Source: Candidatus Woesearchaeota archaeon
GTDB taxonomy: Archaea; Nanobdellota; Nanobdellia; Woesearchaeales; UBA10216
Length of the DNA stretch: 32,845 nucleotides
Assembly: GCA_016188205.1 (NCBI GenBank)
Contig: JACPIG010000061.1
Coordinates: 1 to 32,845, forward strand
Direction: 5' to 3'
Positions 11,668-27,222 of this stretch are shown here, piece by piece. A program made the position numbers and the translations under genes. Under the pieces are notes generated by a model that worked only from the letters and a program-made list of their open reading frames with translations, ran no database searches and had not been told where the DNA came from. How positions within the stretch are numbered: the stretch's first letter is position 1; every line of letters begins with the position of its first letter.

Positions 11668-11708
11668 AAGTCTCTGTAATTCATTTACCTATATAAATGT
11701 TGTTATTT

Positions 11709-11806: not shown

Positions 11807-11886
11807 TGTTAGCAATTTCAGAAAAGGCATTCTTGCTACTGCTTAGTAACGAAACATTTATAAACGGGAGATGCAAGCATGCCCAT

Positions 11887-13551
11887 ATGTTCCTCTTAAT
11901 CCCGGGAAGGCACATAGTGAACACAAGGTTTCAGGAGGAGTACCTAAAGCGAGTTTTAGGAATGCCTGTTGGCTCACTTGAATTTCTTGACGGCAAGCCT
12001 TCTTTGCCACCCGGTGCCACCCTTGACACGATTATTTTCGCCATAACCTCAAGCAACCTTGACAATTCGCGCTTCAACCCTGTTTCATTTGTACACCGAG
12101 CTATCTCTGTTGACCGCTTTGGCAGCCAGTTTAACGGGCTTGGAGTAAGCCACAGGATTTTTGGGATTCCGGACTACGTCACCACAAACAGGTTTTCTGC
12201 GCTGACACTTAAAGAAATCCTTGAGCAGTCAGAAGGTGAGCTTGCGTTGAGCCCGGAAAATACCGTTGTAATGTGCTCAACACCTCCAGTCATAAGCATG
12301 TACAGGCAGCTTGGCTATAGCATTCTGCCCGGAGAGCTTGCATCGCTGGAACCTGAAAGATATGCGGCTATGAGGCCTATTGATGTTGTCAGGAAAATAG
12401 CAGGCGCAGGAGAAGCGTGGAGCACCAGCCCAGATGTCCTCGGCGACCTTTCTTTTTCCACTCTAAGCTTTTTCCGTGCGCATCCTGAAGTTCCAAGAAA
12501 AATGATACTCCTGTTTAACGACCCGATGCTCACTGAAGAAGGCAGCCTTACCGACACACGCGACTACGGCTCCTACGTTGTTGGAATGGGAAACATCGCA
12601 ATCGTAAGGGTGAAATATGACGACATACGGCGCGCAATAATGCCTGGCAAGATTGTTGACCACGGCTGCGCTGATGGCGCGCTCATAGAGCTTATGGCAA
12701 AGGAATTTCCAGACTCTGATTTTTACGGCGTAGATGCCTCTGCAAATATGATTGAGCGCGCAAAGCAGCGACAAACACTAAAAGCATATGGCAATGACAC
12801 GTTTGTATTTTTCAGGCAGGGAAACATCATCAGCCCGCTTTTCAAAAGCCCTGCTGCTGACACAATTACGTGCCTGTCGCTGCTGCACGAGGTATGGTCA
12901 TATGGCGCCCAGAAAAAGTCCATTGATGACTACCTTGCTTCAGTGCGAAATCAGCTTGTGACTGGAGGCAGGTTTGTCGTAAGAGACGTAGTTGGACCTG
13001 AACACGGGGAGCAAGAGGTTTACCTCTGGTGCAATCCTGCTGACGGCTCCAACGAAAATCCTTATGCGGCATTTTCAGACCAAGAGCAGCTGAAGGCGCA
13101 CCTTGACGGGCTGTCAACATATTCCCGCTTTATGAGGTTTGCTTCTGACTTTCTGGCTGAAATGAGGCAAAAAGGAAAGCGCGGGCCTGAAACAGAAATA
13201 AATTACAGAGTGGAAAGGATTGATGGCAAGGATTATTTTGTGCTCAGGCTCAAGGAAGCTGTTGAGTTCATGCTCACCAAAGACTACACAGACAACTGGA
13301 GAAGCGAGATGAACGAGGAGTTCACTTACCGCAGTTTTGGCGGGCACAAAAGAGCTCTTGAGCAGGCAGGCTTCAGGGTGATAGAAAACCCGAACGACCC
13401 GATGAGCGGCTCAAGGGCTTACACAAGCCCCTGGATTGCTGAGCACAGCTTCATGGGAAAAGCAGAGCTTTACGAAATGGGAATTGACAGAAATCTGCAC
13501 AAAATGGCTTACCCAATGACAAACATGGTACTGGTGGGTGAGAAGGCATGA
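11887..13551 (+). CDS. Fusion protein: divergent NMNAT-like nucleotidyltransferase-fold domain plus class I SAM-dependent methyltransferase
   Basis: Start at ATG 11887, about 27 nt downstream of tttataaa (11857-11864). The N-terminal LIPGRHIVNTRFQEEYL...DTIIFAITSSNLDNSRFNPVSF parallels archaeal NMNAT GRFQPFHKGH...IIIGIGSAQxSHTxxNPFTAGER, but the HxGH motif is degenerate. The MTase motif I is IVDHGCADGALIELMAKEFPDSDFYGVDASANMIERAK. Confidence 0.65.
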   Translation: MFLLIPGRHIVNTRFQEEYLKRVLGMPVGSLEFLDGKPSLPPGATLDTIIFAITSSNLDNSRFNPVSFVHRAISVDRFGSQFNGLGVSHRIFGIPDYVTTNRFSALTLKEILEQSEGELALSPENTVVMCSTPPVISMYRQLGYSILPGELASLEPERYAAMRPIDVVRKIAGAGEAWSTSPDVLGDLSFSTLSFFRAHPEVPRKMILLFNDPMLTEEGSLTDTRDYGSYVVGMGNIAIVRVKYDDIRRAIMPGKIVDHGCADGALIELMAKEFPDSDFYGVDASANMIERAKQRQTLKAYGNDTFVFFRQGNIISPLFKSPAADTITCLSLLHEVWSYGAQKKSIDDYLASVRNQLVTGGRFVVRDVVGPEHGEQEVYLWCNPADGSNENPYAAFSDQEQLKAHLDGLSTYSRFMRFASDFLAEMRQKGKRGPETEINYRVERIDGKDYFVLRLKEAVEFMLTKDYTDNWRSEMNEEFTYRSFGGHKRALEQAGFRVIENPNDPMSGSRAYTSPWIAEHSFMGKAELYEMGIDRNLHKMAYPMTNMVLVGEKA

Positions 13552-14825
13552 ATCAAGGAAAAGGCATGAAGCCAAGAACCCTGGCAGAAGCGCTCGGAAT
13601 TAAAGGGACACCTGTGATGAGCAACGAACAGATGCAGGCGTATGCCTGGGAAAGAAAGCTGGCAGACCCCGGGACACAGGGAGTGCTCCTTGAGGAACAA
13701 GTCAGTGGGCTGAGGGGAATAGTTATCCACAACGCGAAAACAACAGAGGAAGTAAGACGCGTCCTCCGGGACGAGGCGAAACTTTCCGTTGTTGAATATG
13801 CCCCGCCAAAATCATCCGAACCGCATTTCTGGGTTCCGGCGACAGGATACATACACGTGGTTAATACAAGAGGAATAACAAGACTGCTGAGAGATGAAGC
13901 ATTAGCCAGAATACTTAGTTATCTTCTCCCCAATGAGGTTGAAATTGCCATAAGCAACTATCATGGCAGCAGGCGCGAAGCCAACGACAGGTTTGAGCAT
14001 TTTGCCTATGCGCTTGTTGATGATATCTTCATGCACCTTGACAAAGCAGCAGTAACCAAAAATGGCAGGATTAACCTTCTCCTTGGCCCTTATGTGTCAA
14101 TAGATGACGCGCTTAGCACAGATGGATGCGAGATTGCTCACAGTACAGACAGTGACTACCTTAACTACAGAATTGTTCTTGCGGGCACATCAGAAGGGAA
14201 GGAAGTAGTGGTTAATTTTGACTATATCTTCGCTGACCAGGCAAAGGACGTTCTGCACAAGCTGTACAAGGGGGTTGCTGCGGAATTCAGCAGGCAGGGC
14301 ATCAGCATAAACGTGCTGCATTACGGCAAGGTAGGCGTACTGGATCCGGCAACAAATGTCGGAGACATAATAATCCCCACAGGCGCTTTTGACGAGGAAA
14401 AGCTTCAATATGCGGTCAGGAGAGGAGAGCCCATACCGCAGCAATACGCTCTAAACAACCAAATCGCATCCAATCCGGATGTGAGAGCACTATTTTATCG
14501 CGCTGTCAGCGGCAGAATAAATTCAGGGGTTACGGTCAACACAAACTCCGTCCTTGAGCAGACAGCAGAAAGGCTCCGGATTGATTTAGGCGCAGGCGGA
14601 AACTGGCTTGAAATGGAATGGGCAGTAATAGCCAGCCTGTCAACAGGCTCACACAGCACATACCCCGGGACAGGGTCAATAAACCACTTCCTGGCAGGAG
14701 TCGGCTCAGACAACCCGCTAAGAGGGCAAACACTCGGAGAAACACATTACCCCCGCGAAAGGGAAGCAGAAGTTGCGAAAGCAATGATAAGGATAATACA
14801 GCATATGCCTGAGCTGGGGCTTTGA
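13548..14825 (+). CDS. PNP/UDP-fold nucleosidase or phosphorylase-like protein (AMP-nucleosidase-like C-terminal half) with an unknown N-terminal domain
   Basis: ATGA overlap with the upstream stop (13548-13551). The C-terminal half reads HYGKVGVLDPATNVGDIIIPTGAFDEE ... GVTVNTNSVLEQ ... NWLEMEWAVIASL ... FLAGVGSDNPLRGQ. This mirrors the GHCGGL..IGDYVL, TVVTTDDRNWE, IDMESATIAA and LLCVSDKPLHGE blocks of AMP nucleosidase, recalled from memory. Confidence 0.55.
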   Translation: MNQGKGMKPRTLAEALGIKGTPVMSNEQMQAYAWERKLADPGTQGVLLEEQVSGLRGIVIHNAKTTEEVRRVLRDEAKLSVVEYAPPKSSEPHFWVPATGYIHVVNTRGITRLLRDEALARILSYLLPNEVEIAISNYHGSRREANDRFEHFAYALVDDIFMHLDKAAVTKNGRINLLLGPYVSIDDALSTDGCEIAHSTDSDYLNYRIVLAGTSEGKEVVVNFDYIFADQAKDVLHKLYKGVAAEFSRQGISINVLHYGKVGVLDPATNVGDIIIPTGAFDEEKLQYAVRRGEPIPQQYALNNQIASNPDVRALFYRAVSGRINSGVTVNTNSVLEQTAERLRIDLGAGGNWLEMEWAVIASLSTGSHSTYPGTGSINHFLAGVGSDNPLRGQTLGETHYPREREAEVAKAMIRIIQHMPELGL

Positions 14826-14831
14826 GGAAAA

Positions 14832-15812
14832 ATGGCAAAAGTCACAGTAATCTTCAAGGAAAGCACGCACAAGATTTACAGCGCTTCAGACAGCGCAGGA
14901 TTACTGGCTTATATGCAAAAAGGAAGCGCACATGTGAAAGGGATGGAAGAAGCGCGTGACGAGCACGAAAGAACGCTTGAAGAAGTTATAAGGGTTATAG
15001 ACAGGCATGGAGTCGGCTGCAATGCGATATACAGGGGTGAACTCTCCGGAATGGATGAGGAAAGAAGGAGAGAGCTCATCCAAAATGCACAGCTTCTTAT
15101 TACTGTTGGAGGCGACGGCACATTCATGGAGGCATCCCACTATATCCCTGAAGGGTCAGCAACGCCCCTTCTTGGAGTTAATTCAGACCCTGCGAGGAGC
15201 ACGGCTTTCTACTCAATCGCAAACATGCAGACATTTGAAGGCATATTAGGGCAGGCACTTGAAGGGAAACTGACAAAACTTCTTCTTCCGAGGCTGAGCA
15301 TAGAGGTCAACGGAAAAAGGATTGCTGAGCTTGTAATAAACGACGTCAGGCTGAAAAACTCAGGAGATGACCTTTTCAGATACGACCTTTCCGTTGACGG
15401 CGCCGTAAAATCAGGGCTGCGCTCAGACGGAATACTGGCATGCACTCCTTCAGGATACACTGGATGGATGGTTGACTTTCCCGGAAGCATATACCTTCCT
15501 CTCGGCTCAAAAGACATGCAGTACTACTTAATGGGAAAGCCAGTGCCGCCAGAACTCGCAAAACAATCCATTGAAATCTCCTCACTGACAAGAGAGGGAA
15601 TAATGCATGTTGATGGTGTTCACGTGCAGTACGAATTCAGCATAGGTGACGTTATAAGGATAACCCCCGGAGAGCCGCTTACATTCCTCGGGGAACTTGA
15701 AGGCAAGAGGGCAGCATATGCTGCGAGAAAATTTGAAGAGCTGCTCACAGCGATACCCGTGTTTGAGCAAAGGGCGAGAGCAAACCTGGAACTGGTCAGA
15801 GGGAGGGCTTAG
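14832..15812 (+). CDS. nadK: NAD kinase
   Basis: The GGDG motif is LLITVGGDGTFM, the NDV motif is LVINDVRL, and SDGILACTPSGYTGW corresponds to DGxxxSTPTGSTAY. A GAGG site lies upstream of the ATG. Confidence 0.88.
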   Translation: MAKVTVIFKESTHKIYSASDSAGLLAYMQKGSAHVKGMEEARDEHERTLEEVIRVIDRHGVGCNAIYRGELSGMDEERRRELIQNAQLLITVGGDGTFMEASHYIPEGSATPLLGVNSDPARSTAFYSIANMQTFEGILGQALEGKLTKLLLPRLSIEVNGKRIAELVINDVRLKNSGDDLFRYDLSVDGAVKSGLRSDGILACTPSGYTGWMVDFPGSIYLPLGSKDMQYYLMGKPVPPELAKQSIEISSLTREGIMHVDGVHVQYEFSIGDVIRITPGEPLTFLGELEGKRAAYAARKFEELLTAIPVFEQRARANLELVRGRA

Positions 15813-15818: not shown

Positions 15819-16661
15819 TTATGATAGCCTACTGTCCGTAATTGTGCGCAGCAAAATTTCCTTAAAGCCGGGGTTTACATCAGTTATTATTGACACATTT
15901 CCATACACTGCTTTTTCAGTTATTGCGCTGTCTGCGAAGTGATGCACAACAAGCGGGTCATAAAGGTATGCGCAGTCCTGCTCAGCTTTTCCCATCCAGG
16001 ACTGAGCAGCAGCATGAATGTAAGCAGAAGCTGAGGCTGGAACTCCTCCTGATTTTATCAGCCCAAAATCCTCTCTTGTCAGGGAGCTTTTCTTGCATAC
16101 TTCTGTCGTGACAATGGTTATGGGCGCTGGCGATGCAAAGACAATGTCAACAGCCTCAGGGTCAACCTTGAAGTTGTGCGCCCTGTAGTTGATGTAAAAC
16201 GCGCCAGGCGTTATAATAGCGTTGCCCATGGCGTATATGTGGCTGACAAGGGCAGGGAGGTCAGGGTACTTTTGGAAAGCCCTTGCAATGTTAGTCATCG
16301 GGCCTATTGACGCGATGCCTACATTATTCCTGCTCGCGTATATTGCTTCAGCGATTGCCTCAACACCATCCAGCCTTATGTCAAGGCTTTCAGCAGCATC
16401 CACAAAATCCGCGCCTTCATCCCCTTCCCAGTAAAGGTGCTTCTGCTTCAACGGCTTTGACTCGCCTGCAGCAACAGGAATATCTGCGCCCAGAAGCATA
16501 ACCAGCTTTTTCGCTATGCGCGCCCTGACGTAAGCGTCTCCGTGAACTGTTGTCACCAGCTTAATGTTCATCCCCAGTTTTACCGCGTACATTAATGCTA
16601 TCGCGTCATCAACATCAGTCCCTATGTCCGTATCTATGATTATGGCTTCGTCAATGCTCAT
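15819..16661 (-). CDS. Inosine/uridine-preferring-type nucleoside hydrolase (IUNH family)
   Basis: The N-terminal fingerprint is IIIDTDIGTDVDDAIALMYA (DxDxxxDD). The gene overlaps the upstream gene by 4 nt (16658-16661). Confidence 0.88.
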   Translation of the reverse strand: MSIDEAIIIDTDIGTDVDDAIALMYAVKLGMNIKLVTTVHGDAYVRARIAKKLVMLLGADIPVAAGESKPLKQKHLYWEGDEGADFVDAAESLDIRLDGVEAIAEAIYASRNNVGIASIGPMTNIARAFQKYPDLPALVSHIYAMGNAIITPGAFYINYRAHNFKVDPEAVDIVFASPAPITIVTTEVCKKSSLTREDFGLIKSGGVPASASAYIHAAAQSWMGKAEQDCAYLYDPLVVHHFADSAITEKAVYGNVSIITDVNPGFKEILLRTITDSRLS

Positions 16662-17578
16662 TTTCCATACCTCTCAGCCACAGCAGCAAAAAGGTTAAGC
16701 GCGCTGATAACTGAATCGCGCATCATGCATATGTCGTCGCCAAGCATAAAAGCCCTGTAGCCCATCCTGAGAAGATTATCAACATCGCCTATGTCCTGGC
16801 ATGACGGCTCAAGGCTTTCCGCGAGCGAAGGGAAAATCCTTGACGCAACAATGGCATTTTGCTCCTTTGCAACTATGAGCTCGCAGGCAGCAATAACATG
16901 ATGAGGCATCTTCAGCTCAGTGTAAAGGTCGCCCCTCGCAGCCATAAGCCTTGTTTTGCCTTCCGGCTTCCATAGAGTCTTGACATAATCCATTCCCTTC
17001 ACAGACTCAATCTTCTCAACAACATTGGCAGCAGAGTCAAGAGCCCTCAAGTCAGAAATGTCCTCTGGCTTCTCAACAAATGAAAGCATGTAATTATGCG
17101 CGCCAACCTTTACAGCAGCTTCAACATACCTTTTGTCAGTGTCAGTCATGTATCCCTCTATTGACAATGAAGGGTGCGGGATGTTTATTGACTCTCCCTC
17201 ACCGACAACCCTTTTCGGCCCGTCCTGCATTATGAGCCTGCTGCCGTCTGCAGCAAGAATCACAGCACTTTCCTGCCCGTCGTGGAAGTAAGCCCTCACA
17301 TTCGGCTCAACAGTTATCCTGTGGCTTATCCCGATTTCCGTAAATGGGGGGACAGCATACCCGACAACCCTTATCTGCCTGCATTTGAGGTCTATCCACA
17401 ACTCCTTTCCAAAAGTTCCAGCCTCGTGAAAAAGCCTTTTAAGCACGTCCTCAAGCGAGTCAGAGCCCTTAACAGGCATGACTGTGTTAAGCCTTATGCC
17501 TGAAACAACCTGATGGCTTAGCACGTCCCTCAGGTAAGGCGCGTACGGAGGCATTGTGACTATTGCGGTTGCTTCCAT
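16658..17578 (-). CDS. Pyruvate-kinase-like barrel protein (A and B domains only, no C-terminal regulatory domain)
   Basis: SGIRLNTVMP compares with ARLNFSHG, and WIDLKCRQIRV with DTKGPEIR. GESINIP compares with KGVNLP, MLSFVEKPEDI with ALSFVRxAxDV, and VVEKIES with IISKIEN. LMAARGDLYTEL compares with IMVARGDLGVEI. At 306 aa it is shorter than a canonical PK by about the size of the C-terminal domain (estimate from memory). Confidence 0.6.
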   Translation of the reverse strand: MEATAIVTMPPYAPYLRDVLSHQVVSGIRLNTVMPVKGSDSLEDVLKRLFHEAGTFGKELWIDLKCRQIRVVGYAVPPFTEIGISHRITVEPNVRAYFHDGQESAVILAADGSRLIMQDGPKRVVGEGESINIPHPSLSIEGYMTDTDKRYVEAAVKVGAHNYMLSFVEKPEDISDLRALDSAANVVEKIESVKGMDYVKTLWKPEGKTRLMAARGDLYTELKMPHHVIAACELIVAKEQNAIVASRIFPSLAESLEPSCQDIGDVDNLLRMGYRAFMLGDDICMMRDSVISALNLFAAVAERYGK

Positions 17579-17581
17579 TGC

Positions 17582-18652
17582 TCACCTTCCTGCCTTCAGC
17601 TCATAAATCCTGTCAGCTGCAGACACAAGCCTTTCCAAGCCGCTTACCTGCCTTATCCATGATTCAGGAAAGACCATTCCGTTTTTCGCCCCAGCCAGAG
17701 CGCCGTAAATCGCGCCAGTGGTATCTGTGTCGCCGCCGAAATTAACAACCTCAACCAGCCCCTCTACTGGATTGTCCCAGTACTTCTGCAGCATGAACAA
17801 AGCAAAAGGGTAAGAGCTGAATACGAGGCTGCTGCTGCCCAAATTCCTGTGCGCATCAGCAGCTTCTGCATCCATGCTGGCGGCAACCCATTCAACCCTT
17901 TCCGAGAGGCTGCCCGAGCCTGAACGAGCGTTGCTTCTGCCAAGCGGCATTTCGTAACGCCTGCACACACTAGTGAGAGAACTTACAAAATCATTTCTTG
18001 GAATATCCTGAAGCAGCCCGTATATGGCATGAGCCTGAACAACTCCGCTGGCAACAGAGCGCGGATCAAGGTGCGTGATTCTCCCTGTCAATCCCGCATA
18101 CTGCAGCCCCTTTTCGCACTCACCTGTTGCATCCATATACATCCCGACAGGCGACATCTTCATTGCAGGAGCATTTCCAGGAGCGCCTACAACACCTGAT
18201 TTTTCAGGCGGAAATCCTTCCATCAATCTCCTGAAGCCCCTGATTGTCGTATAGCCAAAGCCTCCTGTTGACCTTCCATCCGGAAGAAGCCTCTGCACAT
18301 ACTCTGCCAGCTGCTTTCCAGCAATATGCCCAAGGTCAAGACCTTTACATTCAGCAATTGCCTCAGCCAAAGCCAGAGTCAGAATCGTGTCGTCTGTGTA
18401 ATCTCCAGCTTTCATTCCTGCGTCTGCGGCAAAATACTTCAGCTTTCCGAACTCGTCATGCCTGACAACTTTGCCATTGCCATCCCTCAAAACAAACGGC
18501 TCAACCGGCTCAGTTATCCTTCCCACATGCTTTTCTATCTGCTCCTTCTTCCAGCCCTCAACAGGCTTTCCAAGGATGTCACCTATGGCACAGCCTACAA
18601 GCACAGCCCTGTACCTTTCTCTCATGTCCGGCATATTCGGCATATTCGGCAT
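17582..18652 (-). CDS. ADP-ribosylglycohydrolase (ARH/DraG family)
   Basis: The N-terminal motif is RYRAVLVGCAIGDILGKPVEG, followed by YTDDTILT and the C-terminal metal motif GGDTDTTGAIYGALAGA. First ATG is at 18652, with three more in-frame ATGs in a 9-nt tandem repeat (18625-18652). Confidence 0.9.
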   Translation of the reverse strand: MPNMPNMPDMRERYRAVLVGCAIGDILGKPVEGWKKEQIEKHVGRITEPVEPFVLRDGNGKVVRHDEFGKLKYFAADAGMKAGDYTDDTILTLALAEAIAECKGLDLGHIAGKQLAEYVQRLLPDGRSTGGFGYTTIRGFRRLMEGFPPEKSGVVGAPGNAPAMKMSPVGMYMDATGECEKGLQYAGLTGRITHLDPRSVASGVVQAHAIYGLLQDIPRNDFVSSLTSVCRRYEMPLGRSNARSGSGSLSERVEWVAASMDAEAADAHRNLGSSSLVFSSYPFALFMLQKYWDNPVEGLVEVVNFGGDTDTTGAIYGALAGAKNGMVFPESWIRQVSGLERLVSAADRIYELKAGR

Positions 18653-18843
18653 ATTCAATACCTCTGCATTCCATATGCAAATTTACAGCAGGCTAAACTA
18701 CAGAGGGCTAAGCCAGGATTTCCTCAAGGGGGCTTTCACCTGCCAAGCCCTCCTTGGGTTCCTGAGGCATAAGCTCCTCGTAGCTGCAAATTATTTTCCG
18801 GCTCATCCCACACCTCATTCCTTTCCCTGCACGCTTTCATCCC

Positions 18844-19839
18844 CTATGGCTTGTCCACCATCTCGTCAAGAGGCACAGACACGCCGCCTGAATCAGGCCT
18901 GTCAATAACAGACCTGTTTGAAGCTGCTGACAGGTCAGGGATGAACCTCAGCGAGTCGTAAACCGCTGAGCGCACAGCAGGGTCTGTCTGCCTTGAACCC
19001 ATGCTGTCCTTGAAGTCTCCGTATTGTCCCCAGTGCTTTGCTATTATTCCCATCGCTATGTCAACAACCCTGTCGCTGCCCGGAAGCTCAATTATGCGCT
19101 GCCTTCCAATGGCTGCTGCCCAATAGTCAACAACCTCCCTGTCTATTCCCGGATCATTTCCACTTTCATATGGCTTGTGCAGGAAGAAAACATTGAACCT
19201 CTGCATCAGCCCTTCCCATACAGCCTTTCCTTCAAGCGGCGACTGAAGCCTGTCGCCAATGTAGTGCTCCACCTGCCTTGGTTCAACTTTGCTGTAGAAC
19301 TTTTCATCCCCGCAAACCAGCAGGAAAGGCGACTTGGCGTTTGGCATCTCAACTTTTTTCAAGGCAAAATAGCCGAACAGCTCATAGCTCTCGGAGTACT
19401 GCCCGCCTCCTTTACCTTCAGGGCACAGCGCCTTTATGTGGTCCTCAAGCTCAACGCCCTTGCCAAAATTGTTGACCTGCAGCGGATAATTGTCGCAGTT
19501 TGCATCCCCAATTGCTGCAAACGATATCTCCACGTCAGGCCTGTACTGAGACAGGGTCTGGTAAAGCAATGGCAGCCTGTCAAAAATCTCAGACGGCCAG
19601 TCCTGCATAGAGCCTGTAACGTCTATTGCGAAAACTATCGGGTTTTCACTCGCTGTCGTTATAACCTTTCCGTTTGTGCCAACCAGCTTTGAGTCAGGGC
19701 TTGACCTTTTTGCGTAAGCCCTTCCTCCACGCGCACTCGCGGCAGACGCAAGCTTATCAAGGTAAGGCGCCCTCGCAGAGTCGTACTTGTATGCGTCCGG
19801 CTTTTTCCAGTTTGCAGTTCCTCCTCCCCAGCTGTACAT
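18844..19839 (-). CDS. von Willebrand factor A (vWA) domain protein
   Basis: Start trimmed to the ATG at 19839, which is preceded by GGAGGTAAACAAA. The MIDAS-like motif is IVFAIDVTGSM, followed by alternating beta-alpha pattern (SFAAIGD, FLLVCGDEKF, NVFFLHKP). Confidence 0.72.
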   Translation of the reverse strand: MYSWGGGTANWKKPDAYKYDSARAPYLDKLASAASARGGRAYAKRSSPDSKLVGTNGKVITTASENPIVFAIDVTGSMQDWPSEIFDRLPLLYQTLSQYRPDVEISFAAIGDANCDNYPLQVNNFGKGVELEDHIKALCPEGKGGGQYSESYELFGYFALKKVEMPNAKSPFLLVCGDEKFYSKVEPRQVEHYIGDRLQSPLEGKAVWEGLMQRFNVFFLHKPYESGNDPGIDREVVDYWAAAIGRQRIIELPGSDRVVDIAMGIIAKHWGQYGDFKDSMGSRQTDPAVRSAVYDSLRFIPDLSAASNRSVIDRPDSGGVSVPLDEMVDKP

Positions 19840-19906: not shown

Positions 19907-20683
19907 TCAAACAGCGTGCCTTCTTTCAAAGACCTTCTCCCTTATGTCTGAAAGCCTTTGCAAAGGGTTGTCCTTATCCCAGTTAGGCCTATCCACAGGA
20001 TTGTAACGAAGCAGGCTGCTGCAAAACTCCGCAAGCTCATCAGGCACATCTGAAGGAAGCGACTTCTTTGCCACGTCACCGCCAAGAGCTGTAAGCATGA
20101 CCAGCCCTGCGCCGTAAAGGTCAGTTTCCGGAATAGGCGGCTTTCCGTCAAGCACCTCAGGAGCAACATATGCAGGTGTATATCCAACAACTTTTGAGCG
20201 GCTCGTCGGGTTAAGGACTGCAAGCCCCCAGTCAATCAGCTTTATGTCCCTTTTTTTCGGCTCAACAAGCACGTTCTGCGGCTTTATGTCTGAATGTATT
20301 ACACCGTTTGAATGCGCATAATACAATGCGCCAAGCAGGCGCTCAGTAATCCACGAAGCATCCTCAGGATGAATCCTTCCCCTTCCTGACTTAACAATCT
20401 CGTCAAGAGTCCTGCCTTCTATGTAACTTAGCACAATCATCGCGTTCCTGTCGTCAAGCCTTATGTAGTCCCTCACTGCCGGTATGGAGTGGTACTCGTA
20501 AAGCTCCCACATCACCTTCGCCTCTCTCCTTAGAAGCTCAACATCATCAGGTGTTGTGCGGATGTTCTGCTTCAGGCAAGCCAGCTCGTCAAGCATCACA
20601 TGCCTTGCAACATAAATCCTTGCAAAGCCGCCCTCGGCAAGCCTGCTTTCAATCCGATAATTCCCGATTGTTGGCATTTTCAT
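19907..20683 (-). CDS. Hanks-type Ser/Thr protein kinase (stand-alone catalytic domain)
   Basis: The Gly loop is LAEGGFARIY and the catalytic-loop region is ACLKQ ... VIHSDIKPQNVLV (HSD, so non-RD). DWG replaces DFG in KLIDWGLA, followed by YVAPEV and DLYGAGLVM. Confidence 0.9.
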   Translation of the reverse strand: MKMPTIGNYRIESRLAEGGFARIYVARHVMLDELACLKQNIRTTPDDVELLRREAKVMWELYEYHSIPAVRDYIRLDDRNAMIVLSYIEGRTLDEIVKSGRGRIHPEDASWITERLLGALYYAHSNGVIHSDIKPQNVLVEPKKRDIKLIDWGLAVLNPTSRSKVVGYTPAYVAPEVLDGKPPIPETDLYGAGLVMLTALGGDVAKKSLPSDVPDELAEFCSSLLRYNPVDRPNWDKDNPLQRLSDIREKVFERRHAV

Positions 20684-20694
20684 CACTCTTTTCC

Positions 20695-21651
20695 CTACTT
20701 TCCTGCTGTCGCTGCAGTGTAAAGCGCCAGCTCAATATGCGCAGGCTCCAAAAGGGCATACCCATTGGATTCTATTGCTGCAGCCACCCTTTTAGCCCAG
20801 CCCGGCCACTCTGTCTTTTCCATTCCACAAATAACCTGCCCAACAAGTTCCTGTGTATAGCCCCTTGACAAAAAGAAGAGCTCGTCCATCACCATTGATG
20901 CCTTGCCCAGCTCACCCCTTGGGAAGCCGTTGTCATGATTTGAGTCCAGCATCTGCACCAGCCTGCCTGTGGCGTGTTCAAAAGCGCCTGCAGGAATTAA
21001 GCCGGCATATCCAGCATCTCCTGATTCAGGAGGAAGCTGGCACAGACCCCTGTAACCCTCATAAAGCCCGCCTTCAAGAGGCTCCCTGTAAAACGAGCCT
21101 TCAGACCTTTCACCAGCCTCATTGAGCATGTCCTCCCACGTGGGCTGAAGCCGCCTGTCAGTCTGAACTGCTGAAAGCGAGCGCGCCAAATGCGCGGAAA
21201 TACTTGTCCCTGCAATATCCGCCTTCATCTTAGGGCTGTTAATCAAGCCGTATAAAGATTCAAAAAGAGCAGCGTCCTTTCCCAGATAGCCGCAAAACTG
21301 GACAAGGTTCTGCACATAAAGCCTTCTCAGGTAAAGCCCCTCATTGCCTTCACCAAGCACATTCAAGTTGATTTCATGCCCTGTGTCTGGCTCTGTGTCA
21401 GGCAGCGTTTCCAGAAGCCTTATCGCCATCTCCCTGCACTTAACAGTGTACGCTCCTTTATTGTCGTCTGCGCTTTCAATCAGCCTGAGCATCCTTACAA
21501 CCTGCATATATTCGCCCCCACTCGCATACCCGCCTTGGTCATAGCCCTGCCCTATTGCGCGCGCCAGTTCGCCAATGTCGCCTTCGTCCAGTGCCTTGAG
21601 CAGCCTTTCGCTCCCCTCAAATTCGTGCATTGCAATTCTGCCGATGTCCAT
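20695..21651 (-). CDS. Hypothetical protein (about 318 aa) with no recognisable motif; first gene of the vWA/kinase module
   Basis: ATG at 21651 is preceded by GGAGGTG and lies 2 nt after the TGA of the Nudix-NMNAT gene. The stop is 11 nt before the kinase ATG. I see no PP2C, FHA or P-loop signatures. Confidence 0.6.
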   Translation of the reverse strand: MDIGRIAMHEFEGSERLLKALDEGDIGELARAIGQGYDQGGYASGGEYMQVVRMLRLIESADDNKGAYTVKCREMAIRLLETLPDTEPDTGHEINLNVLGEGNEGLYLRRLYVQNLVQFCGYLGKDAALFESLYGLINSPKMKADIAGTSISAHLARSLSAVQTDRRLQPTWEDMLNEAGERSEGSFYREPLEGGLYEGYRGLCQLPPESGDAGYAGLIPAGAFEHATGRLVQMLDSNHDNGFPRGELGKASMVMDELFFLSRGYTQELVGQVICGMEKTEWPGWAKRVAAAIESNGYALLEPAHIELALYTAATAGK

Positions 21652-21653
21652 TT

Positions 21654-22811
21654 TCACACCTCCGCAGGATGAAGCCTCTCGCTTTCAACACATTCAGGGC
21701 TCCTGTAATCCTTTCCTGAAAGCTGCGCGATTGTCTCCAGCCCGAACTCGCGCCTGAACCTGTCAGCAAGCCCATGGCTTTCCATGTAATCAGCAACAGC
21801 AGCAGGCACAAGCGCTTTCCAGTTGCCAGCCTTAGCCATCTCCATCCTCACAGTTGTCGCGTTCAGTTTTATCCATTTCTCAGGCGGGATAAGCTCGTCA
21901 GCAGGATTAATTATCACATATGTGCCCTCAAGCAATTCCTTCACATAGCCGTTCGCAGTCACAAAAGCGTCAAGGGAGCCGTACTGCAAAGCAACCTCCC
22001 CAGCCCACTTCCTTCCATCCCTGAATTCAGGAATGTGCCCGTAATCAGGAATCTCAACAAAGCTGTAGTTTGAGAACCTCGGGGAAAGGTATGCGCCAAT
22101 CATCTCCCTTGTTTCTTCTGCAGTAAAAGGGTTCCTTGCATTGTACTTGTTGCAGCTGCCTATTCCTATAGTGACGTGCTCTGCCTGTTCACACACAGCC
22201 TCAAGCATACCTGCTGCGCCATTATGCAAAGGTTTGAACCTGCCTATGACTCCAACCCTTCCCAGCTTTTTCACATGAGAATCTTCGGCTGAATCTTTGG
22301 CAGCGCCCATTACTCCGGATGCGGAATATCCCTTTTCCAGCAGATACTTTTCCAGAGTTTTTGCATGGTCAAACGCAAGCCCGCCTTTTGCAATGAGCGC
22401 CTGTATTTCTGGAATCGTATAAAGCCTTGCAGAAGCCGCATCATCACCAGCCCATATTTTGCCTGCGCCTTTTGCAATGTATGTCACGCTGATTATGTGC
22501 GCCCTCGGGTCGCGTGCAGGGTCTGAATGGACGCAGAAAGGCATTTCAGGCTCATTTACAATAATCTCAAGCCCGGTTTCCTCTTTCGCCTCCTTCGCAG
22601 CGTTCTCCTCCAATGTAAGCCCTGACTCGGCAAACCCTCCGGGCAGAGCAATCCCATAAGGATAGTTTTTCCTTGTAATAAGGACAATCCCATCATCAGA
22701 GCCGTCTGTGTACTCTATAATGATGTCAGTTGTCAGCAGGGGATTAGTGTCTCTCCTGTGGATGGTGTTCTGTGCCTTTTGTGCCTGTTGTGCCGTCTGT
22801 GTTGTGCTCAT
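21654..22811 (-). CDS. nadM: Bifunctional-type fusion: N-terminal Nudix hydrolase plus C-terminal archaeal-type NMN/NaMN adenylyltransferase
   Basis: The Nudix box is GGFAESGLTLEENAAKEAKEETGLEI. The NMNAT part reads VIGRFKPLHNGAAGMLE...VTIGIGSCNKYNARNPFTAEETREMI...NATTVRMEMAKAGNWKALVP, closely paralleling the M. jannaschii-type NMNAT as I recall it. ATGA overlap with the nadE stop (22808-22811). Confidence 0.85.
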   Translation of the reverse strand: MSTTQTAQQAQKAQNTIHRRDTNPLLTTDIIIEYTDGSDDGIVLITRKNYPYGIALPGGFAESGLTLEENAAKEAKEETGLEIIVNEPEMPFCVHSDPARDPRAHIISVTYIAKGAGKIWAGDDAASARLYTIPEIQALIAKGGLAFDHAKTLEKYLLEKGYSASGVMGAAKDSAEDSHVKKLGRVGVIGRFKPLHNGAAGMLEAVCEQAEHVTIGIGSCNKYNARNPFTAEETREMIGAYLSPRFSNYSFVEIPDYGHIPEFRDGRKWAGEVALQYGSLDAFVTANGYVKELLEGTYVIINPADELIPPEKWIKLNATTVRMEMAKAGNWKALVPAAVADYMESHGLADRFRREFGLETIAQLSGKDYRSPECVESERLHPAEV

Positions 22812-24865
22812 GCTGCCATCACCCCTGCAACAGCCACAGCATGAGCACCTGCAACTGCACCAGTTCCATCTTTTTGCGCACCATCCGCCCAGTCTTTCGG
22901 CACATACCTGACCATAGCAAGCACTTCTGCCTTCAGCCTTTCATAAGCAGGCATTCTTCCATTAGGCAGAATGCTTTCCCTTATGTCGTAGCCATAAGCA
23001 GACTTGCTGACGACGATTATCGGCGGGCTTTGAACGCGCTTGAACACGTTTCCTTCTGCCTTTGCAATAAACCACTCAAGGTCGCTGACAAACTCTTTTG
23101 GGTCATCCATGCCCCAGCGCCTTATGAGCTCAGTTGATATTCCGAGATTCTCCTCAAGAGCGCCCTCAATGTACCAGCGCATTATCTGCTCAGGCGATTT
23201 CCTCATGTAGTCAGTCATGGCATTGACAAACGCGCAGTGGTAGCCGAACTTTATAGGACTCACCTGACCTTCCTTCAGCTCAGGACCAGACTTTATCTGG
23301 TCATCCCTGAACCTGTACAGCCTGTCAGGAATAAGCTCTTCCGGAAGCACTTCCCTTCCGAAAATCTCTCTGTTAAGGTAACGCGCAAGCTCAAAAACCT
23401 CTGCCTTTGTCAAATCGCCAATTGGCGATAATGCCCCGCCAACATCCCCATAGAGCGTTGCGTAGCCAAGCATTATCTCATCCTTGTTGCCGTTGTTCGT
23501 GAACAAGGCGCCATACATGCCTGCAAGGTTTGAAAGAATTGCAGTTCCCCGGATTTTTGCAGCAACGTTCTCAACGTAGCTGCTCTCGGCAAGCTTCTTC
23601 CCGCTGCCGTCAAGGTCAAAGCGGTCAATAAGAGCGATGTTTGCATTTGTGAGCTCTTCTATCGGGATTTCCACGTAGCCGATACCAAGGCTTTCAGCAA
23701 TTCCTGCAGCAGCCTGCATTGTCCTTGCAGAATTAACATGTGTAGGCATATTGATGGCAAGCACCTTCTCAGGGCCAACAGCCACTGTCAGAAGAGCTGC
23801 AACAACTGCGCTGTCTATGCCTCCGCTCAGGCCTATCACGTATCTTGGCTGCTCCTGCAAGCCCATGAAATCCTTCATGTGCCTTATGCCTTCTACGATT
23901 GCCTCGTACTTCTGCGCAATCATCGGCTTCTCAAGCCTCACAACAGGGCTCCTAAAAAATTCTTCCTCATCAACAATCATGAGCTCCTGCTCATAAGCGG
24001 CTTTGCTGAGCCTGACAGGCAAGCCATCACTGTTGTAAACGGTTGAGCCGCCATCAAACGTTATGAAGTTCTTGCCAGTATTCTGAACCCCTGTGCAGTT
24101 GACATAAAGGAACGGAACAAAGCTGTTTCCTGACTCTCCCTTCAGAAACCTTATCCTCCTGTCCCTTGCAGCGTTCTTGCCGTAAGTCCAGGGAGAAGCG
24201 GAAATGTTGACAACGAGCTGCGCGCCGTTTCCTATCAGAATCCTTGTGGCGTTCTGCGCCTCGCCGTTCCTCCTGTAATCAGCACACCACAAATCCTCGC
24301 ACACCTCAAAGCCAACAGGAACCTTTTTTCCTTTTACGTCTATTACGAAAGGCTGCACGAGGTCTTCAAGCGCTGCGCCAAAATCCTTTGCAACGTCCTC
24401 TGTGGAAAAGAAATACCTCTCATCGTCAAAGAACCTGTAGTTCGGAAGCAAGGTCTTTGGCTGCACGCCTTCAGGCAGCAGATTTGTTTCCTTCAGGCGC
24501 TGTGCAGGCATGCCATTCTGGAAAACGTAAACAGCATTGTACTTCCTGCTCCTCCCATCCTTGTTCGGATGAGGCTTTTCGTCGCCAACCCTTTCATTGA
24601 TTTCCCGGTCAACAAAGATATTGCCATAAGCAACGGCAATACCATCGCTTGCCTTTCTCAGAGCCTCATTGAACTCCATCAGGCCTTCGCAGTAGTCGTC
24701 GCTGAGCCACTTGTCACCCAGAAGGTAGCCGCCAACACTCATCTCAGGGAAAGCAATAAGGTCAACGCCCTCAAGCTTTGCCCTTTCAATCATGCCAAGC
24801 ATTGCCTCAAGGTTTTTCCCTGGAGCTCCGGGCTTCACTTCCATCTGTGCAAGCGCAACCTTCAT
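22808..24865 (-). CDS. nadE: Glutamine-dependent NAD+ synthetase (CN-hydrolase glutaminase domain plus PP-loop synthetase domain)
   Basis: The nitrilase-type N-terminus is MKVALAQMEVKPG...LIAFPEMSVGGY...FEVCEDLW. The PP-loop is VIGLSGGIDSAVVAAL. ATG at 24865 is preceded by AAGGTGG. Confidence 0.93.
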   Translation of the reverse strand: MKVALAQMEVKPGAPGKNLEAMLGMIERAKLEGVDLIAFPEMSVGGYLLGDKWLSDDYCEGLMEFNEALRKASDGIAVAYGNIFVDREINERVGDEKPHPNKDGRSRKYNAVYVFQNGMPAQRLKETNLLPEGVQPKTLLPNYRFFDDERYFFSTEDVAKDFGAALEDLVQPFVIDVKGKKVPVGFEVCEDLWCADYRRNGEAQNATRILIGNGAQLVVNISASPWTYGKNAARDRRIRFLKGESGNSFVPFLYVNCTGVQNTGKNFITFDGGSTVYNSDGLPVRLSKAAYEQELMIVDEEEFFRSPVVRLEKPMIAQKYEAIVEGIRHMKDFMGLQEQPRYVIGLSGGIDSAVVAALLTVAVGPEKVLAINMPTHVNSARTMQAAAGIAESLGIGYVEIPIEELTNANIALIDRFDLDGSGKKLAESSYVENVAAKIRGTAILSNLAGMYGALFTNNGNKDEIMLGYATLYGDVGGALSPIGDLTKAEVFELARYLNREIFGREVLPEELIPDRLYRFRDDQIKSGPELKEGQVSPIKFGYHCAFVNAMTDYMRKSPEQIMRWYIEGALEENLGISTELIRRWGMDDPKEFVSDLEWFIAKAEGNVFKRVQSPPIIVVSKSAYGYDIRESILPNGRMPAYERLKAEVLAMVRYVPKDWADGAQKDGTGAVAGAHAVAVAGVMAA

Positions 24866-24893
24866 TTTGTCCACCTTCAGCCTTTAGCAGGCT

Positions 24894-25559: not shown

Positions 25560-25577
25560 TTTTACCACCTCACCAGT

Positions 25578-27216: not shown

Positions 27217-27222
27217 ATAGTT

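What the first reader, a model, noticed from the sequence alone, without database searches (positions are those of the whole stretch)
15819..18658. ARH - truncated pyruvate-kinase-like - nucleoside hydrolase operon: a possible ADP-ribose or riboside processing trio
Three tightly packed genes (a 3-nt gap and a 4-nt overlap) encode three proteins. The first is an ADP-ribosylglycohydrolase with intact metal motifs. The second is a 306-aa protein with clear pyruvate-kinase A/B-domain motifs (SFVE, EKIES, MAARGDL, GESINIP), DLKCRQIR in place of DTKGPEIR, and no C-terminal domain. The third is an IUNH-type nucleoside hydrolase (DTDIGTDVDD). ARH-like genes next to sugar or nucleoside kinases and nucleoside transporters are known in bacteria. 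A PK-fold partner is unusual. The trio could release ADP-ribose or ribosides, cleave the N-glycosidic bond and carry out a phosphoryl transfer, but the substrate of the PK-like enzyme is unknown.
Basis: partly seen in the sequence, partly recalled or inferred. Interest (0 to 1): 0.65.

Follow-up and report, generated by a model that had tools for sequence, protein, structure and literature searches.

The report
Short pyruvate-kinase-like enzyme in NAD cluster
The three genes are real, but the unusual one, a pyruvate-kinase-like enzyme lacking the regulatory domain, belongs to a large unstudied family that always sits beside a vWA-domain partner in NAD or purine salvage operons of archaea, bacteria and giant phages.

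Summary
ARH (18658..17582), a 306-aa PK-like protein (17578..16658) and an IUNH hydrolase (16661..15819) lie on the minus strand with a 3-nt gap and a 4-nt overlap, and every quoted motif is present.

The trio is not the conserved unit. In 85 related loci, ARH occurs in 17 of 52 archaeal and 0 of 33 bacterial loci. IUNH occurs in 10 of 52 and 0 of 33.

What is conserved is a MIDAS-bearing vWA protein directly upstream of the PK-like gene (47/47 archaeal, 28/29 bacterial, 15/15 viral loci). A Ser/Thr kinase or an AAA ATPase usually precedes it, and an NTP-consuming ligase usually lies nearby: NMNAT plus NadE, or an adenylosuccinate-synthetase-like enzyme in a second clade.

In the window this cassette sits in an 18-kb NAD(P) salvage cluster that encodes an NrtR-type regulator. 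The PK-like family is about 300 aa long and has about 200 representatives at 50% identity. It keeps the PK catalytic Arg, Lys, Glu and Asp residues and never has the C-domain, so it is neither a pseudogene nor an ordinary glycolytic PK.

My best guess, inferred rather than shown, is a PEP-dependent phosphotransferase regulated by vWA and the kinase. It would regenerate NTP for nucleotide-cofactor salvage. ARH and IUNH would be accessory salvage enzymes.

The parts
16658..17578 (-). PK-like protein (PKL), 306 aa. It has the PK A-domain TIM barrel and a shortened B-domain, with no C-domain. The catalytic residues are kept.
   Evidence: Pfam PF00224, 2e-12. AF2 pLDDT 94.4. Foldseek matches PK with TMq 0.75-0.81. 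R29, N31, D63, K65, K189, E191 and D217 are invariant in 48 diverse members. They align with PykF R32, N34, D66, K68, K220, E222 and D246.
18844..19839 (-). vWA-domain partner of PKL. It is 331 aa from the conserved Met; the ORF extends to 19929. The MIDAS motif D73-x-T75-x-S77 is invariant.
   Evidence: No Pfam or NCBIfam hit. 542 homologues, all named hypothetical where a source names them. AF2 pLDDT 89.8. Foldseek matches integrin beta-I and NorD vWA domains, E 1e-6. It lies directly upstream of PKL in 47/47 archaeal, 28/29 bacterial and 15/15 viral loci.
19907..20686 (-). Ser/Thr protein kinase, the third member of the kinase-vWA-PKL triad.
   Evidence: Pfam Pkinase 7e-35. Present in 42/52 archaeal and 14/15 viral PKL loci but only 2/33 bacterial loci. 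In some phages it carries an N-terminal DnaJ domain.
17582..18658 (-). ADP-ribosylglycohydrolase (ARH), a lineage-specific insertion between the vWA gene and PKL.
   Evidence: PF03747, 2e-55. The closest solved structures are MJ1187, DraG and ARH3. Found in 17/52 archaeal PKL loci and within about 8 kb of PKL in 7 of 15 viral loci.
15819..16661 (-). IUNH-type nucleoside hydrolase, a short 280-aa form whose start overlaps the end of PKL by 4 nt.
   Evidence: PF01156, 2e-44. RihC/RihA-like but below the equivalog cut-offs. Directly downstream of PKL in 9/52 archaeal loci.
21654..22811 (-). Nudix-NMNAT fusion. The NadM-type adenylyltransferase is C-terminal, and its motif is HNGA instead of HxGH.
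   Evidence: Pfam NUDIX plus CTP_transf_like. NCBIfam NMNAT, 76 bits against a cut-off of 127. NMNAT homologues occur in 42/52 archaeal and 26/33 bacterial PKL loci. Motif read.
22808..24874 (-). Glutamine-dependent NAD synthetase (NadE).
   Evidence: PF02540 plus PF00795. Present in 33/52 archaeal and 22/33 bacterial PKL loci. In bacteria it lies directly downstream of PKL.
24894..25568 (-). Nicotinamidase-like protein (PncA, isochorismatase family).
   Evidence: PF00857. Found in 24/52 archaeal loci.
25777..27324 (-). Nicotinate phosphoribosyltransferase (PncB).
   Evidence: NAPRTase_N, NAPRTase_C and NAPRTase. Found in 22/52 archaeal loci.
27346..28275 (-). Second, divergent NAD-kinase-like paralogue.
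   Evidence: No Pfam hit. Weak NCBIfam NAD kinase hits. It clusters with the NADK at 14832-15812.
29367..30041 (-). NrtR-type Nudix/winged-helix regulator. NrtR proteins are ADP-ribose-responsive repressors of NAD genes.
   Evidence: PF21906 (4e-25) plus NUDIX. NrtR-like hits occur in 33/52 archaeal PKL loci, although this count may include stand-alone Nudix genes.
20695..21657 (-). Unknown 320-aa protein between NMNAT and the kinase. Quinolinate synthase NadA occupies this position in other loci.
   Evidence: No hit in Pfam, NCBIfam, PADLOC or PHROGs. Found only in the window and L004. NadA at this position.
14832..15812 (+). NAD kinase, last gene of the plus-strand operon that converges on the trio.
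   Evidence: PF01513. Found in 28/52 archaeal PKL loci.
13548..14825 (+). Protein of 425 aa with a PNP_UDP_1 phosphorylase/nucleosidase-like C-terminal half.
   Evidence: PF01048, 1e-7. Found in 14/52 archaeal loci.
11833..13551 (+). Protein of 572 aa: an unknown N-terminal half plus a class I SAM methyltransferase.
   Evidence: Methyltransf_31/12/25. Found in 14/52 archaeal loci.

Best explanation
The trio is the tail of an 18-kb NAD(P) salvage and homeostasis cluster (about 11.8-30 kb) in a DPANN (Woesearchaeota-like) archaeon. The cluster encodes an NrtR-type regulator.

Inside it is a conserved mobile cassette: Ser/Thr kinase, then a MIDAS-bearing vWA protein, then a PK-like enzyme. In this lineage an ARH gene has been inserted between the vWA and PK-like genes, and an IUNH gene follows.

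Shown:
- The PK-like protein has the PK A and B domains with the phosphoryl-transfer residues kept. These are the Arg and Asn of RLN, the Asp, Lys and Arg of DxKxxxxR, the Lys and Glu of KIE, the Asp of RGD, and Ser in place of the proton-donor Thr.
- It lacks the allosteric and tetramerisation C-domain.
- It is always encoded next to the vWA protein.

Inferred:
- It is an active PEP-dependent phosphotransferase that forms a phosphoanhydride, most simply NDP to NTP.
- It probably does not need K+, because the Ser76-equivalent ligand is Val and an invariant Arg sits at the position of residue 116.
- The vWA partner, controlled by the kinase (or by an AAA ATPase in other clades), replaces the missing C-domain in assembly and regulation.
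- The cassette supplies or regenerates NTP for the neighbouring NTP-consuming enzymes: NMNAT, NadE, PncB and NADK here, and an adenylosuccinate-synthetase-like enzyme in the second clade.
- ARH and IUNH are accessory feeders. ARH releases ADP-ribose, which is the NrtR effector and the Nudix substrate. IUNH splits nicotinamide or nicotinate riboside (or other ribosides) to give a base for PncA and PncB.
For: Cluster content.

Family size and length: 951 hits; 206 representatives below 1e-10, nearly all about 300 aa.

Catalytic conservation. The PykF reference sequence was checked against the PDB.

Fold: for the PK-like protein; for vWA.

Neighbourhood census of 85 loci:
- vWA within 1.5 kb upstream on the same strand: 47/47 archaeal and 28/29 bacterial loci.
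- NMNAT: 42/52 and 26/33.
- NadE: 33/52 and 22/33.
- Kinase: 42/52 and 2/33.
- The bacterial minimal operon is NMNAT-vWA-PKL-NadE. It occurs in Anaerolineae, Myxococcota (including cultured Chondromyces apiculatus), Planctomycetota, Clostridia and Thermoanaerobaculaceae.

Phages: 15 IMG/VR contigs of 45-485 kb carry the vWA-PKL pair, and 14 of them also have the kinase.

Second clade: 6 of 7 loci read (AAA or kinase)-vWA-PKL-adenylosuccinate-synthetase-like, with overlapping or abutting gene ends. The vWA homology there has E 1e-45 to 1e-67.

Fusion: P0139 joins a PK-like domain to a PP-loop QueC-like domain.

Adenylosuccinate synthetase releases GDP (established biochemistry). GDP is a natural PK acceptor.
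Against: No biochemical data exist for any family member.

NMNAT and NadE release PPi and AMP, not NDP, so a simple NDP-to-NTP step does not directly recycle their products.

Nothing explains why plain NTP regeneration would need an obligatory MIDAS-vWA partner plus a kinase or an AAA ATPase.

Several family-specific near-invariant residues suggest a changed substrate pocket. They are R67, Q68, G128, E169, Y274 and D281, and the B-domain Lys206 equivalent is Glu in this clade.

The NMNAT here has HNGA in place of HxGH, so even its activity is uncertain.

I did not search for NrtR operator sites. The roles of ARH and IUNH rest on family membership and context only.
Confidence: 0.4

Rival explanations
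1. The PK-like enzyme acts on a specific NAD- or ADP-ribose-derived metabolite and not on generic NDPs. Examples are phosphorylating ribose-1,5-bisphosphate to PRPP, or ADP-ribose or a riboside to a phosphorylated intermediate that is rebuilt into NaAD or NAD. The cassette would then be a missing step of a new NAD reconstitution route, which is.
For: The gene is tightly embedded between NMNAT and NadE in two domains of life.

PRPP synthetase is missing from every NAD cluster whose genes were listed, although PncB needs PRPP.

ARH, Nudix, IUNH and PNP-like genes recur nearby.

Family-specific near-invariant residues lie around the active site.

PK chemistry naturally makes phosphoanhydrides.
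Against: The second clade pairs the same vWA-PKL cassette with an adenylosuccinate-synthetase-like gene and has no NAD genes.

The phage versions have no NMNAT or NadE detectable by tblastn.

A substrate restricted to NAD metabolism therefore does not fit the whole family. The residues that bind nucleotide in PK (R72, N74, R119 and P52 equivalents) are conserved.
Confidence: 0.25
2. Kinase (or AAA) plus vWA plus PK-like protein is a signalling or conflict module. It would be comparable to the TerY-type vWA/kinase/phosphatase triads. It would sense and reset nucleotide or NAD pools during phage-host or symbiont-host conflict, for example as a counter to NAD- or ATP-depleting immunity. The PK-like protein would be its effector.
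For: The cassette occurs in giant phages, DPANN archaea and CPR bacteria, all of which depend on host nucleotides.

Kinase-vWA pairs also sit next to an AdSS-like gene in about 200 Bxz1-like mycobacteriophages.

The upstream regulator is swapped between kinase, DnaJ-kinase and AAA ATPase. The downstream enzyme is swapped between NadE, AdSS-like and GGDEF-like. This is the modular replacement typical of conflict systems.

ARH lies near the triad in 7 phage loci.
Against: The PK-like, vWA, ARH and IUNH proteins have no PADLOC match.

No toxin or nuclease effector lies nearby.

The sequences are well conserved and not fast-evolving, at 50-65% identity between archaea and bacteria.

In the window the context is plain housekeeping NAD salvage.
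Confidence: 0.2
3. The PK-like protein is simply the organism's minimal, non-allosteric glycolytic pyruvate kinase, and its position in the NAD cluster is incidental.
For: The catalytic residues are intact.

DPANN genomes are reduced, and canonical PK is detected in only a minority of them (preprint 10.64898/2026.05.13.725050).

Many database entries already name family members 'pyruvate kinase'.
Against: The family also occurs in large-genome bacteria that should have ordinary PK (Myxococcota including Chondromyces apiculatus, and Anaerolineae) and in phages.

The link to vWA and to NMNAT/NadE or an AdSS-like gene is near-universal across domains, so it is not incidental.

The protein scores 58 bits against the 306-bit PK equivalog cut-off.
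Confidence: 0.1

Closest known systems
Pyruvate kinase (EC 2.7.1.40; Pfam PF00224 plus PF02887; e.g. E. coli PykF, PDB 1PKY)
   Same: It has the A-domain TIM barrel and an inserted B-domain (Foldseek TMq about 0.8). The catalytic and metal residues are conserved: the equivalents of R72, N74, D112, K114, R119, K269, E271 and D295, with Ser for T327.
   Different: There is no C-terminal allosteric and tetramer domain in any member, and the B-domain is shorter. Identity to PKs is 15-20%. The K+ ligand Ser76 is Val. GPE is replaced by (C/G)RQ, and MLSGE by ML(G/x)DD. The score is far below the curated PK cut-offs. The gene is always paired with a vWA protein and lies in NAD or purine salvage operons, not with glycolysis genes.
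NrtR-regulated NAD salvage operons (PncA, PncB, NadE, NadM-Nudix, NrtR)
   Same: The window encodes an NrtR-type regulator plus PncB, PncA, NadE, NMNAT with a Nudix domain, and NAD kinase. Sister loci also carry PnuC, NadR-like, NadA and NadB genes.
   Different: The cluster is archaeal (DPANN). The fusion order is Nudix-NMNAT, the reverse of the known NadM-Nudix enzymes (from my own knowledge). It adds the kinase, vWA, PK-like, ARH, IUNH, PNP-like and methyltransferase genes, which I did not find described as regulon members in the two literature searches aimed at this. I did not look for operator sites.
TerY-type vWA / Ser-Thr kinase / PP2C phosphatase triads, and MoxR-vWA chaperone pairs (NorQ/NorD, CbbQ/CbbO)
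   Same: A MIDAS-bearing vWA protein is encoded next to a Ser/Thr kinase (window and phages) or an AAA ATPase (second clade), together with an enzyme it may regulate or assemble.
   Different: No PP2C phosphatase is present. The AAA protein matches Pfam PF00004, the classical AAA family, and no MoxR-type family was reported for it. The associated enzyme is a PK-like phosphotransferase. The vWA family has no Pfam model.
Phage NAD reconstitution pathways (NARP1: Adps plus Namat; NARP2: NAMPT plus NMNAT), recalled from my own knowledge
   Same: These are nucleotide-cofactor rebuilding genes carried by phages. An NMNAT/Nudix enzyme takes part, and the logic is to restore a depleted pool.
   Different: No Adps, Namat or NAMPT was seen. 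The phage PK-like loci lack NMNAT and NadE by tblastn. The link is an analogy only.

Membership tests
Pyruvate kinase (EC 2.7.1.40) | A-domain TIM barrel with the catalytic Lys and the Glu and Asp metal ligands (KIE, RGD) and the phosphate-binding Arg | tested here: met
   K189, E191, D217 and R29 are invariant in 48 diverse members and align with PykF K220, E222, D246 and R32. The fold match to PK has TMq about 0.8.
Pyruvate kinase (EC 2.7.1.40) | C-terminal alpha/beta domain (PF02887) that forms the tetramer and the allosteric site | tested here: not met
   The protein ends about 20 residues after the barrel. Pfam finds only PF00224. Nearly all family representatives are 285-330 aa.
Pyruvate kinase (EC 2.7.1.40) | Score above the curated family cut-off (TIGR01064, 306 bits) | tested here: not met
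   58 bits.
Pyruvate kinase (EC 2.7.1.40) | Monovalent-cation site (N74, S76, D112 and the T113 backbone) | tested here: inconclusive
   The Asn and Asp are kept (N31, D63). Ser76 is Val33 and Thr113 is Leu64. An invariant Arg67 may replace K+. This last point is inference only.
Pyruvate kinase (EC 2.7.1.40) | Catalyses PEP + ADP to pyruvate + ATP | not testable with these tools
   Needs an enzyme assay.
ADP-ribosylglycohydrolase (PF03747; DraG/ARH3-like) | Domain match plus the di-metal ligand motifs (TDD(T), GGD(T/A)D(T/S)) | tested here: met
   189 bits against a cut-off of 26. YTDDT and GGDTDTT are present in the translation and align with MJ1187 and DraG. The score is below the DraG and Tri1 equivalog cut-offs, so the substrate is unknown.
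IUNH nucleoside hydrolase (PF01156) | Domain match plus the N-terminal DxDxxxDD Ca2+ motif | tested here: met
   153 bits against a cut-off of 34. DTDIGTDVDD is present and aligns with RihA.
IUNH nucleoside hydrolase (PF01156) | C-terminal catalytic acid (the His of xHDP in group I enzymes) and a full-length C-terminus | tested here: inconclusive
   The protein is about 30 aa shorter than solved IUNHs. The two alignments printed by HMMER stop near residues 200-211, although other listed matches reach residues 237-258. The sequence reads LYDPL where group I enzymes have His-Asp-Pro. This comes from reading the sequence and was not tested further.
NrtR regulon (ADP-ribose-responsive NAD operon) | NrtR regulator (Nudix plus NrtR winged helix) encoded with NAD salvage genes | tested here: met
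   PF21906 (4e-25) plus NUDIX at 29367-30041. PncB, PncA, NadE and NMNAT lie downstream on the same strand.
NrtR regulon (ADP-ribose-responsive NAD operon) | NrtR operator sites upstream of the regulated genes, including the trio | not tested
   I only made a k-mer comparison of the intergenic regions and derived no operator model.
von Willebrand A domain (partner protein) | vWA Rossmann-like fold with the MIDAS DxSxS motif | tested here: met
   Foldseek matches integrin beta-I and NorD vWA domains. D73-V-T75-G-S77 is invariant in 40 sequences.
TerY-P triad (vWA + Ser/Thr kinase + PP2C) | A PP2C phosphatase as the third component | tested here: not met
   No PP2C appears among the window genes or in the related loci whose genes were listed.

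The most novel reading that the evidence does not exclude
The vWA-PKL pair, with its kinase or AAA regulator, is the core of a previously undescribed and widely mobile system that restores nucleotide pools. It would be a PEP-driven phosphotransferase complex that partners with different ligases (NMNAT/NadE for NAD, AdSS-like for adenine nucleotides, PP-loop enzymes). Host-dependent archaea (DPANN), CPR bacteria and giant phages would use it to rebuild NAD and purine nucleotides, possibly against pool-depleting immunity. The enzyme may catalyse a new reaction, for example making PRPP or a phosphorylated ADP-ribose intermediate.
Probability: 0.3. Interest if true: 0.85.

Novelty: new variant of a known kind. 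Interest (0 to 1): 0.62.

Why it matters
First, annotation. Hundreds of species carry a roughly 300-aa protein that pipelines call 'pyruvate kinase'. In DPANN and CPR genomes such calls feed energy-budget reconstructions. A recent survey of Nanobdellota complete genomes finds PK in only a minority of genomes. In the Pacearchaeales and Maxwellarchaeales orders that encode it, upstream glycolysis cannot supply its PEP substrate. If part of that signal is this family, conclusions about substrate-level ATP synthesis need revisiting.

Second, enzymology. This is a natural PK stripped of its allosteric domain and apparently handed to a vWA/kinase partner. That makes it a clean case for how regulation of a classic enzyme can be outsourced.

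Third, pathway discovery. The constant pairing with NMNAT/NadE or an AdSS-like ligase in archaea, bacteria and giant phages points to an unrecognised step, or an unrecognised control, in NAD and purine salvage. A cultured carrier (Chondromyces apiculatus DSM 436) and simple recombinant assays make this directly testable.

Tried and rejected
- Truncated pseudogene or assembly artefact: rejected. The family has 951 hits and 206 representatives below 1e-10, nearly all about 300 aa, with invariant catalytic residues.
- The trio as a conserved operon: rejected by the census of 85 loci.
- PDB 8iw2_A, a 321-aa chain named 'pyruvate kinase', as a characterised short relative. It matches the family profile no better than ordinary PKs. 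I found no paper on it, and an N-terminal query did not retrieve it. Unresolved.
- Apparent vWA-PKL fusion P0261: it looks like a frameshifted high-GC miscall, so I did not use it.
- Long 'fusion' ORFs in the high-GC bacterial loci: these were artefacts of my simple ORF caller. I replaced them with tblastn mapping.
- Known defence systems: PADLOC gave no hit except generic kinase and methyltransferase models.
- ARG-centred anti-ADP-ribosylation systems of Iyer et al. 2022 (PMC9503650): these share NrtR-like, ARG and vWA elements but are built around phosphatases and nucleases that are absent here.
- Literature searches for the PKL/vWA/kinase or AdSS association found nothing.
- NrtR operator search: only a k-mer comparison of intergenic regions, which was inconclusive.

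Full report
**1. Observation**

The minus strand carries three tightly packed ORFs:
- ARH, 18658..17582, 358 aa.
- A PK-like protein, 17578..16658, 306 aa.
- An IUNH hydrolase, 16661..15819, 280 aa.

The gap between the first two is 3 nt, and the last two overlap by 4 nt.

Pfam gives ADP_ribosyl_GH at 2e-55, the PK barrel domain at 2e-12 (residues 91-280, with no PK_C domain), and IU_nuc_hydro at 2e-44.

**2. Setting**

The window is archaeal and most likely from a DPANN lineage. It carries an Orc1/Cdc6 gene and archaeal-type helix-turn-helix proteins. The closest relatives of the PK-like protein come from Woesearchaeota and Nanoarchaeota MAGs.

The trio lies at the end of a long minus-strand NAD(P) cluster. 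In order, the cluster contains:
- NrtR (29367-30041).
- An SPFH protein.
- An NAD-kinase-like paralogue (27346-28275).
- PncB (25777-27324).
- PncA (24894-25568).
- NadE (22808-24874).
- A Nudix-NMNAT fusion (21654-22811).
- An unknown 320-aa protein.
- A Ser/Thr kinase (19907-20686).
- An unannotated 331-aa protein (18844-19839).
- ARH, the PK-like gene and IUNH.

A plus-strand operon converges on the trio. It encodes a 572-aa methyltransferase fusion, a 425-aa PNP_UDP-like protein and NAD kinase (11833-15812).

**3. The PK-like protein is a real, distinct family**
- A search of 5.8 billion proteins found 951 relatives.
- An exhaustive HMMER search of 1.84 billion cluster representatives found 206 below 1e-10. 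Almost all are 285-330 aa.
- The AF2 model is confident, with pLDDT 94.4. It superposes on the A and B domains of solved PKs with TMq 0.75-0.81 at 15-20% identity.
- In an alignment of 48 members reaching down to 28% identity, R29, N31, D63, K65, S166, K189, E191, G195 and D217 are invariant.
- Seven of these align with PykF R32, N34, D66, K68, K220, E222 and D246. Ser246 aligns with the proton-donor Thr278 (the reference sequence was verified).
- Differences specific to the family are (C/G)RQ for GPE, Val for the K+ ligand Ser, Glu for the B-domain Lys in this clade, and GDD for SGE.
- The protein scores 58 bits against the 306-bit PK equivalog threshold.

It is therefore not a pseudogene and not an ordinary PK. 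It does look like an active phosphotransferase.

**4. What is conserved around it**

I fetched 80 loci from GTDB species representatives, out of 363 species with a hit, plus 5 metagenomic loci. I mapped the window's proteins onto them by clustering and tblastn.

| Gene near the PK-like gene | Archaeal loci | Bacterial loci |
|---|---|---|
| 331-aa protein within 1.5 kb upstream, same strand | 47/47 | 28/29 |
| NMNAT | 42/52 | 26/33 |
| NadE | 33/52 | 22/33 |
| Ser/Thr kinase | 42/52 | 2/33 |
| ARH | 17/52 | 0/33 |
| IUNH | 10/52 | 0/33 |

The denominators in the first row count only loci with enough upstream sequence to judge.

ARH lies directly upstream of the PK-like gene only in L004, which is 91% identical to the window. 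IUNH is directly downstream in 9 archaeal loci.

Bacteria carry a minimal NMNAT-partner-PKL-NadE operon. The carriers are Anaerolineae, Myxococcota (including Chondromyces apiculatus DSM 436), Planctomycetota, Clostridia and Thermoanaerobaculaceae.

**5. The partner is a vWA protein**

It has no Pfam or NCBIfam hit, and all 542 homologues are named 'hypothetical' where a source names them. The AF2 model (pLDDT 89.8) matches integrin beta-I and NorD vWA domains. A MIDAS motif, D73-x-T75-x-S77, is invariant.

**6. The cassette is wider than NAD**
- Fifteen IMG/VR viral contigs of 45-485 kb carry the PK-like gene at 30-36% identity. All 15 have the vWA gene directly upstream, and 14 have the kinase before that. 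The kinase is sometimes fused to a DnaJ domain. ARH lies within about 8 kb in 7 of them.
- A second cellular clade occurs in Patescibacteria, Myxococcota, Spirochaetota and Eremiobacterota. In 6 of 7 loci it reads (AAA ATPase or kinase)-vWA-PKL-adenylosuccinate-synthetase-like. The seventh has a GGDEF-like gene in the last position. The vWA homology there has E 1e-45 to 1e-67.
- About 200 Bxz1-like mycobacteriophages carry kinase-vWA-(small ORF)-AdSS-like without a PK-like gene.
- One PK-like protein, P0139, is fused to a QueC-like PP-loop ATPase.

**7. Interpretation**

Established: the PK fold, the conserved catalytic residues, the absent C-domain, the obligatory vWA neighbour, and the recurrent kinase or AAA regulator and NTP-consuming ligase.

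Inferred: the enzyme transfers phosphate from PEP to a phosphate acceptor, most simply NDP to NTP. The vWA protein, with the kinase or AAA ATPase, takes over the assembly and regulatory role of the lost C-domain. The cassette supports NTP-hungry salvage enzymes. AdSS releases GDP, which fits directly. NMNAT and NadE release PPi and AMP, which fits less well. That mismatch keeps alive a substrate-specific alternative, such as R15P to PRPP or an ADP-ribose derivative.

ARH and IUNH are best read as lineage-specific accessory genes of the NAD cluster. ARH would produce ADP-ribose, which is the NrtR effector and the Nudix substrate. IUNH would hydrolyse ribosides to feed PncA and PncB.

**8. Known or new**

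I found no paper describing this family, the vWA partner or the cassette. PADLOC has no model for them. PHROGs lists the phage vWA family as unknown.

The closest described analogues share parts of the cassette but not the PK-like enzyme. These are the TerY-type triads, the MoxR-vWA pairs, the NrtR regulons and the ARG-centred systems of PMC9503650.

**9. Verdict**

The trio as framed is ordinary accessory content of an NAD salvage island. The PK-like gene leads to an uncharacterised, widespread vWA-PKL cassette that deserves experimental follow-up. I rate interest at 0.62 and novelty as a new variant of a known kind.

Noticed in passing
L102, L104-L108 (PKL at 8001-8909 or 7001-7930 and its flanks): A second PKL clade occurs in Patescibacteria, Myxococcota and Spirochaetota. 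Its conserved cassette is (225-aa unknown plus about 630-aa AAA ATPase, or Ser/Thr kinase)-vWA-PKL-adenylosuccinate-synthetase-like. The gene ends overlap or abut, and no NAD genes are present.
   Followed up: partly
L101 (Mycobacterium phage LinStu NC_023714, locus 3670-7386): Bxz1-like mycobacteriophages (about 200 records) encode kinase gp257, a vWA homologue gp258, a small ORF and an adenylosuccinate-synthetase-like gp260. This is the same kinase-vWA pair, but without a PK-like gene.
   Followed up: partly
L086-L100 (IMG/VR viral contigs, PKL at about 10001-10900): Large phages (45-485 kb) carry the kinase-vWA-PKL triad. In some the kinase has an N-terminal DnaJ domain. Recurrent neighbours are ARH, a CYTH-domain protein, an EF-G-like GTPase, a Thg1-like nucleotidyltransferase and RNase HII.
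   Followed up: partly
window 21654-22811 (residues about 190-200 of the product): The NMNAT domain has GRFKPLHNGA. The second His of the nucleotidyltransferase HxGH motif is replaced by Ala (Gly in relatives). The Nudix domain is N-terminal, the reverse of the known NadM-Nudix enzymes. Its activity may differ from that of a standard NMNAT.
   Followed up: no
window 10183-11667 (low-GC block about 10000-12000): A gene for an AAA_14/DUF4143 ATPase lies in a block of 35% GC, against about 50% elsewhere. It sits between seryl-tRNA synthetase and the methyltransferase gene. In the close relative L004 those two genes are adjacent, so this looks like a recent insertion.
   Followed up: partly
window 11709-11726 and 11775-11792: An exact 18-bp direct repeat, TTGACAAGTTATTTATAA, occurs twice upstream of the plus-strand methyltransferase-PNP-like-NADK operon. 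A third partial copy (TTGACAA) lies at 11742. It is a possible promoter or operator element.
   Followed up: no
window 18629-18656: A perfect 9-bp x3 tandem repeat at the 5' end of the ARH ORF encodes MPNMPNMP after a TTG start. The true start codon is uncertain. A 185-bp GC-rich spacer (18659-18843) separates ARH from the vWA gene.
   Followed up: no
window 20695-21657: A 320-aa protein has no match in Pfam, NCBIfam, PADLOC or PHROGs and occurs only in this lineage. It occupies the position between NMNAT and the kinase that quinolinate synthase NadA holds in other loci (L001).
   Followed up: no
window 27346-28275 and 14832-15812: One cluster holds two divergent NAD-kinase-like paralogues, both far below the NCBIfam cut-offs. 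The cluster also contains an SPFH/Band 7 protein (28279-29148) next to NrtR.
   Followed up: no
archaeal loci L011, L013, L020-L022, L025, L027, L033-L035, L038, L039, L042, L043, L046, L051: In 16 archaeal loci an unannotated protein of about 290-370 aa (cluster c12, no Pfam hit) lies next to the vWA gene. In 15 of them it sits between the vWA and PK-like genes, the slot ARH occupies in the window. In L051 it lies just upstream of the vWA gene. A 125-aa protein (c24) fills the slot in 5 others.
   Followed up: partly
PDB 8iw2_A: A solved 321-aa chain deposited as 'pyruvate kinase' aligns over almost its whole length with the PKL family profile (E 4e-18). It may be another C-domain-less PK. 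I found no publication on it.
   Followed up: partly
window 2192-3268: An Orc1/Cdc6-type AAA+ gene is present, so the window may lie near a replication origin. Several short tandem repeats occur at 3381-3992 and 5107-5204, inside neighbouring low-complexity ORFs.
   Followed up: no
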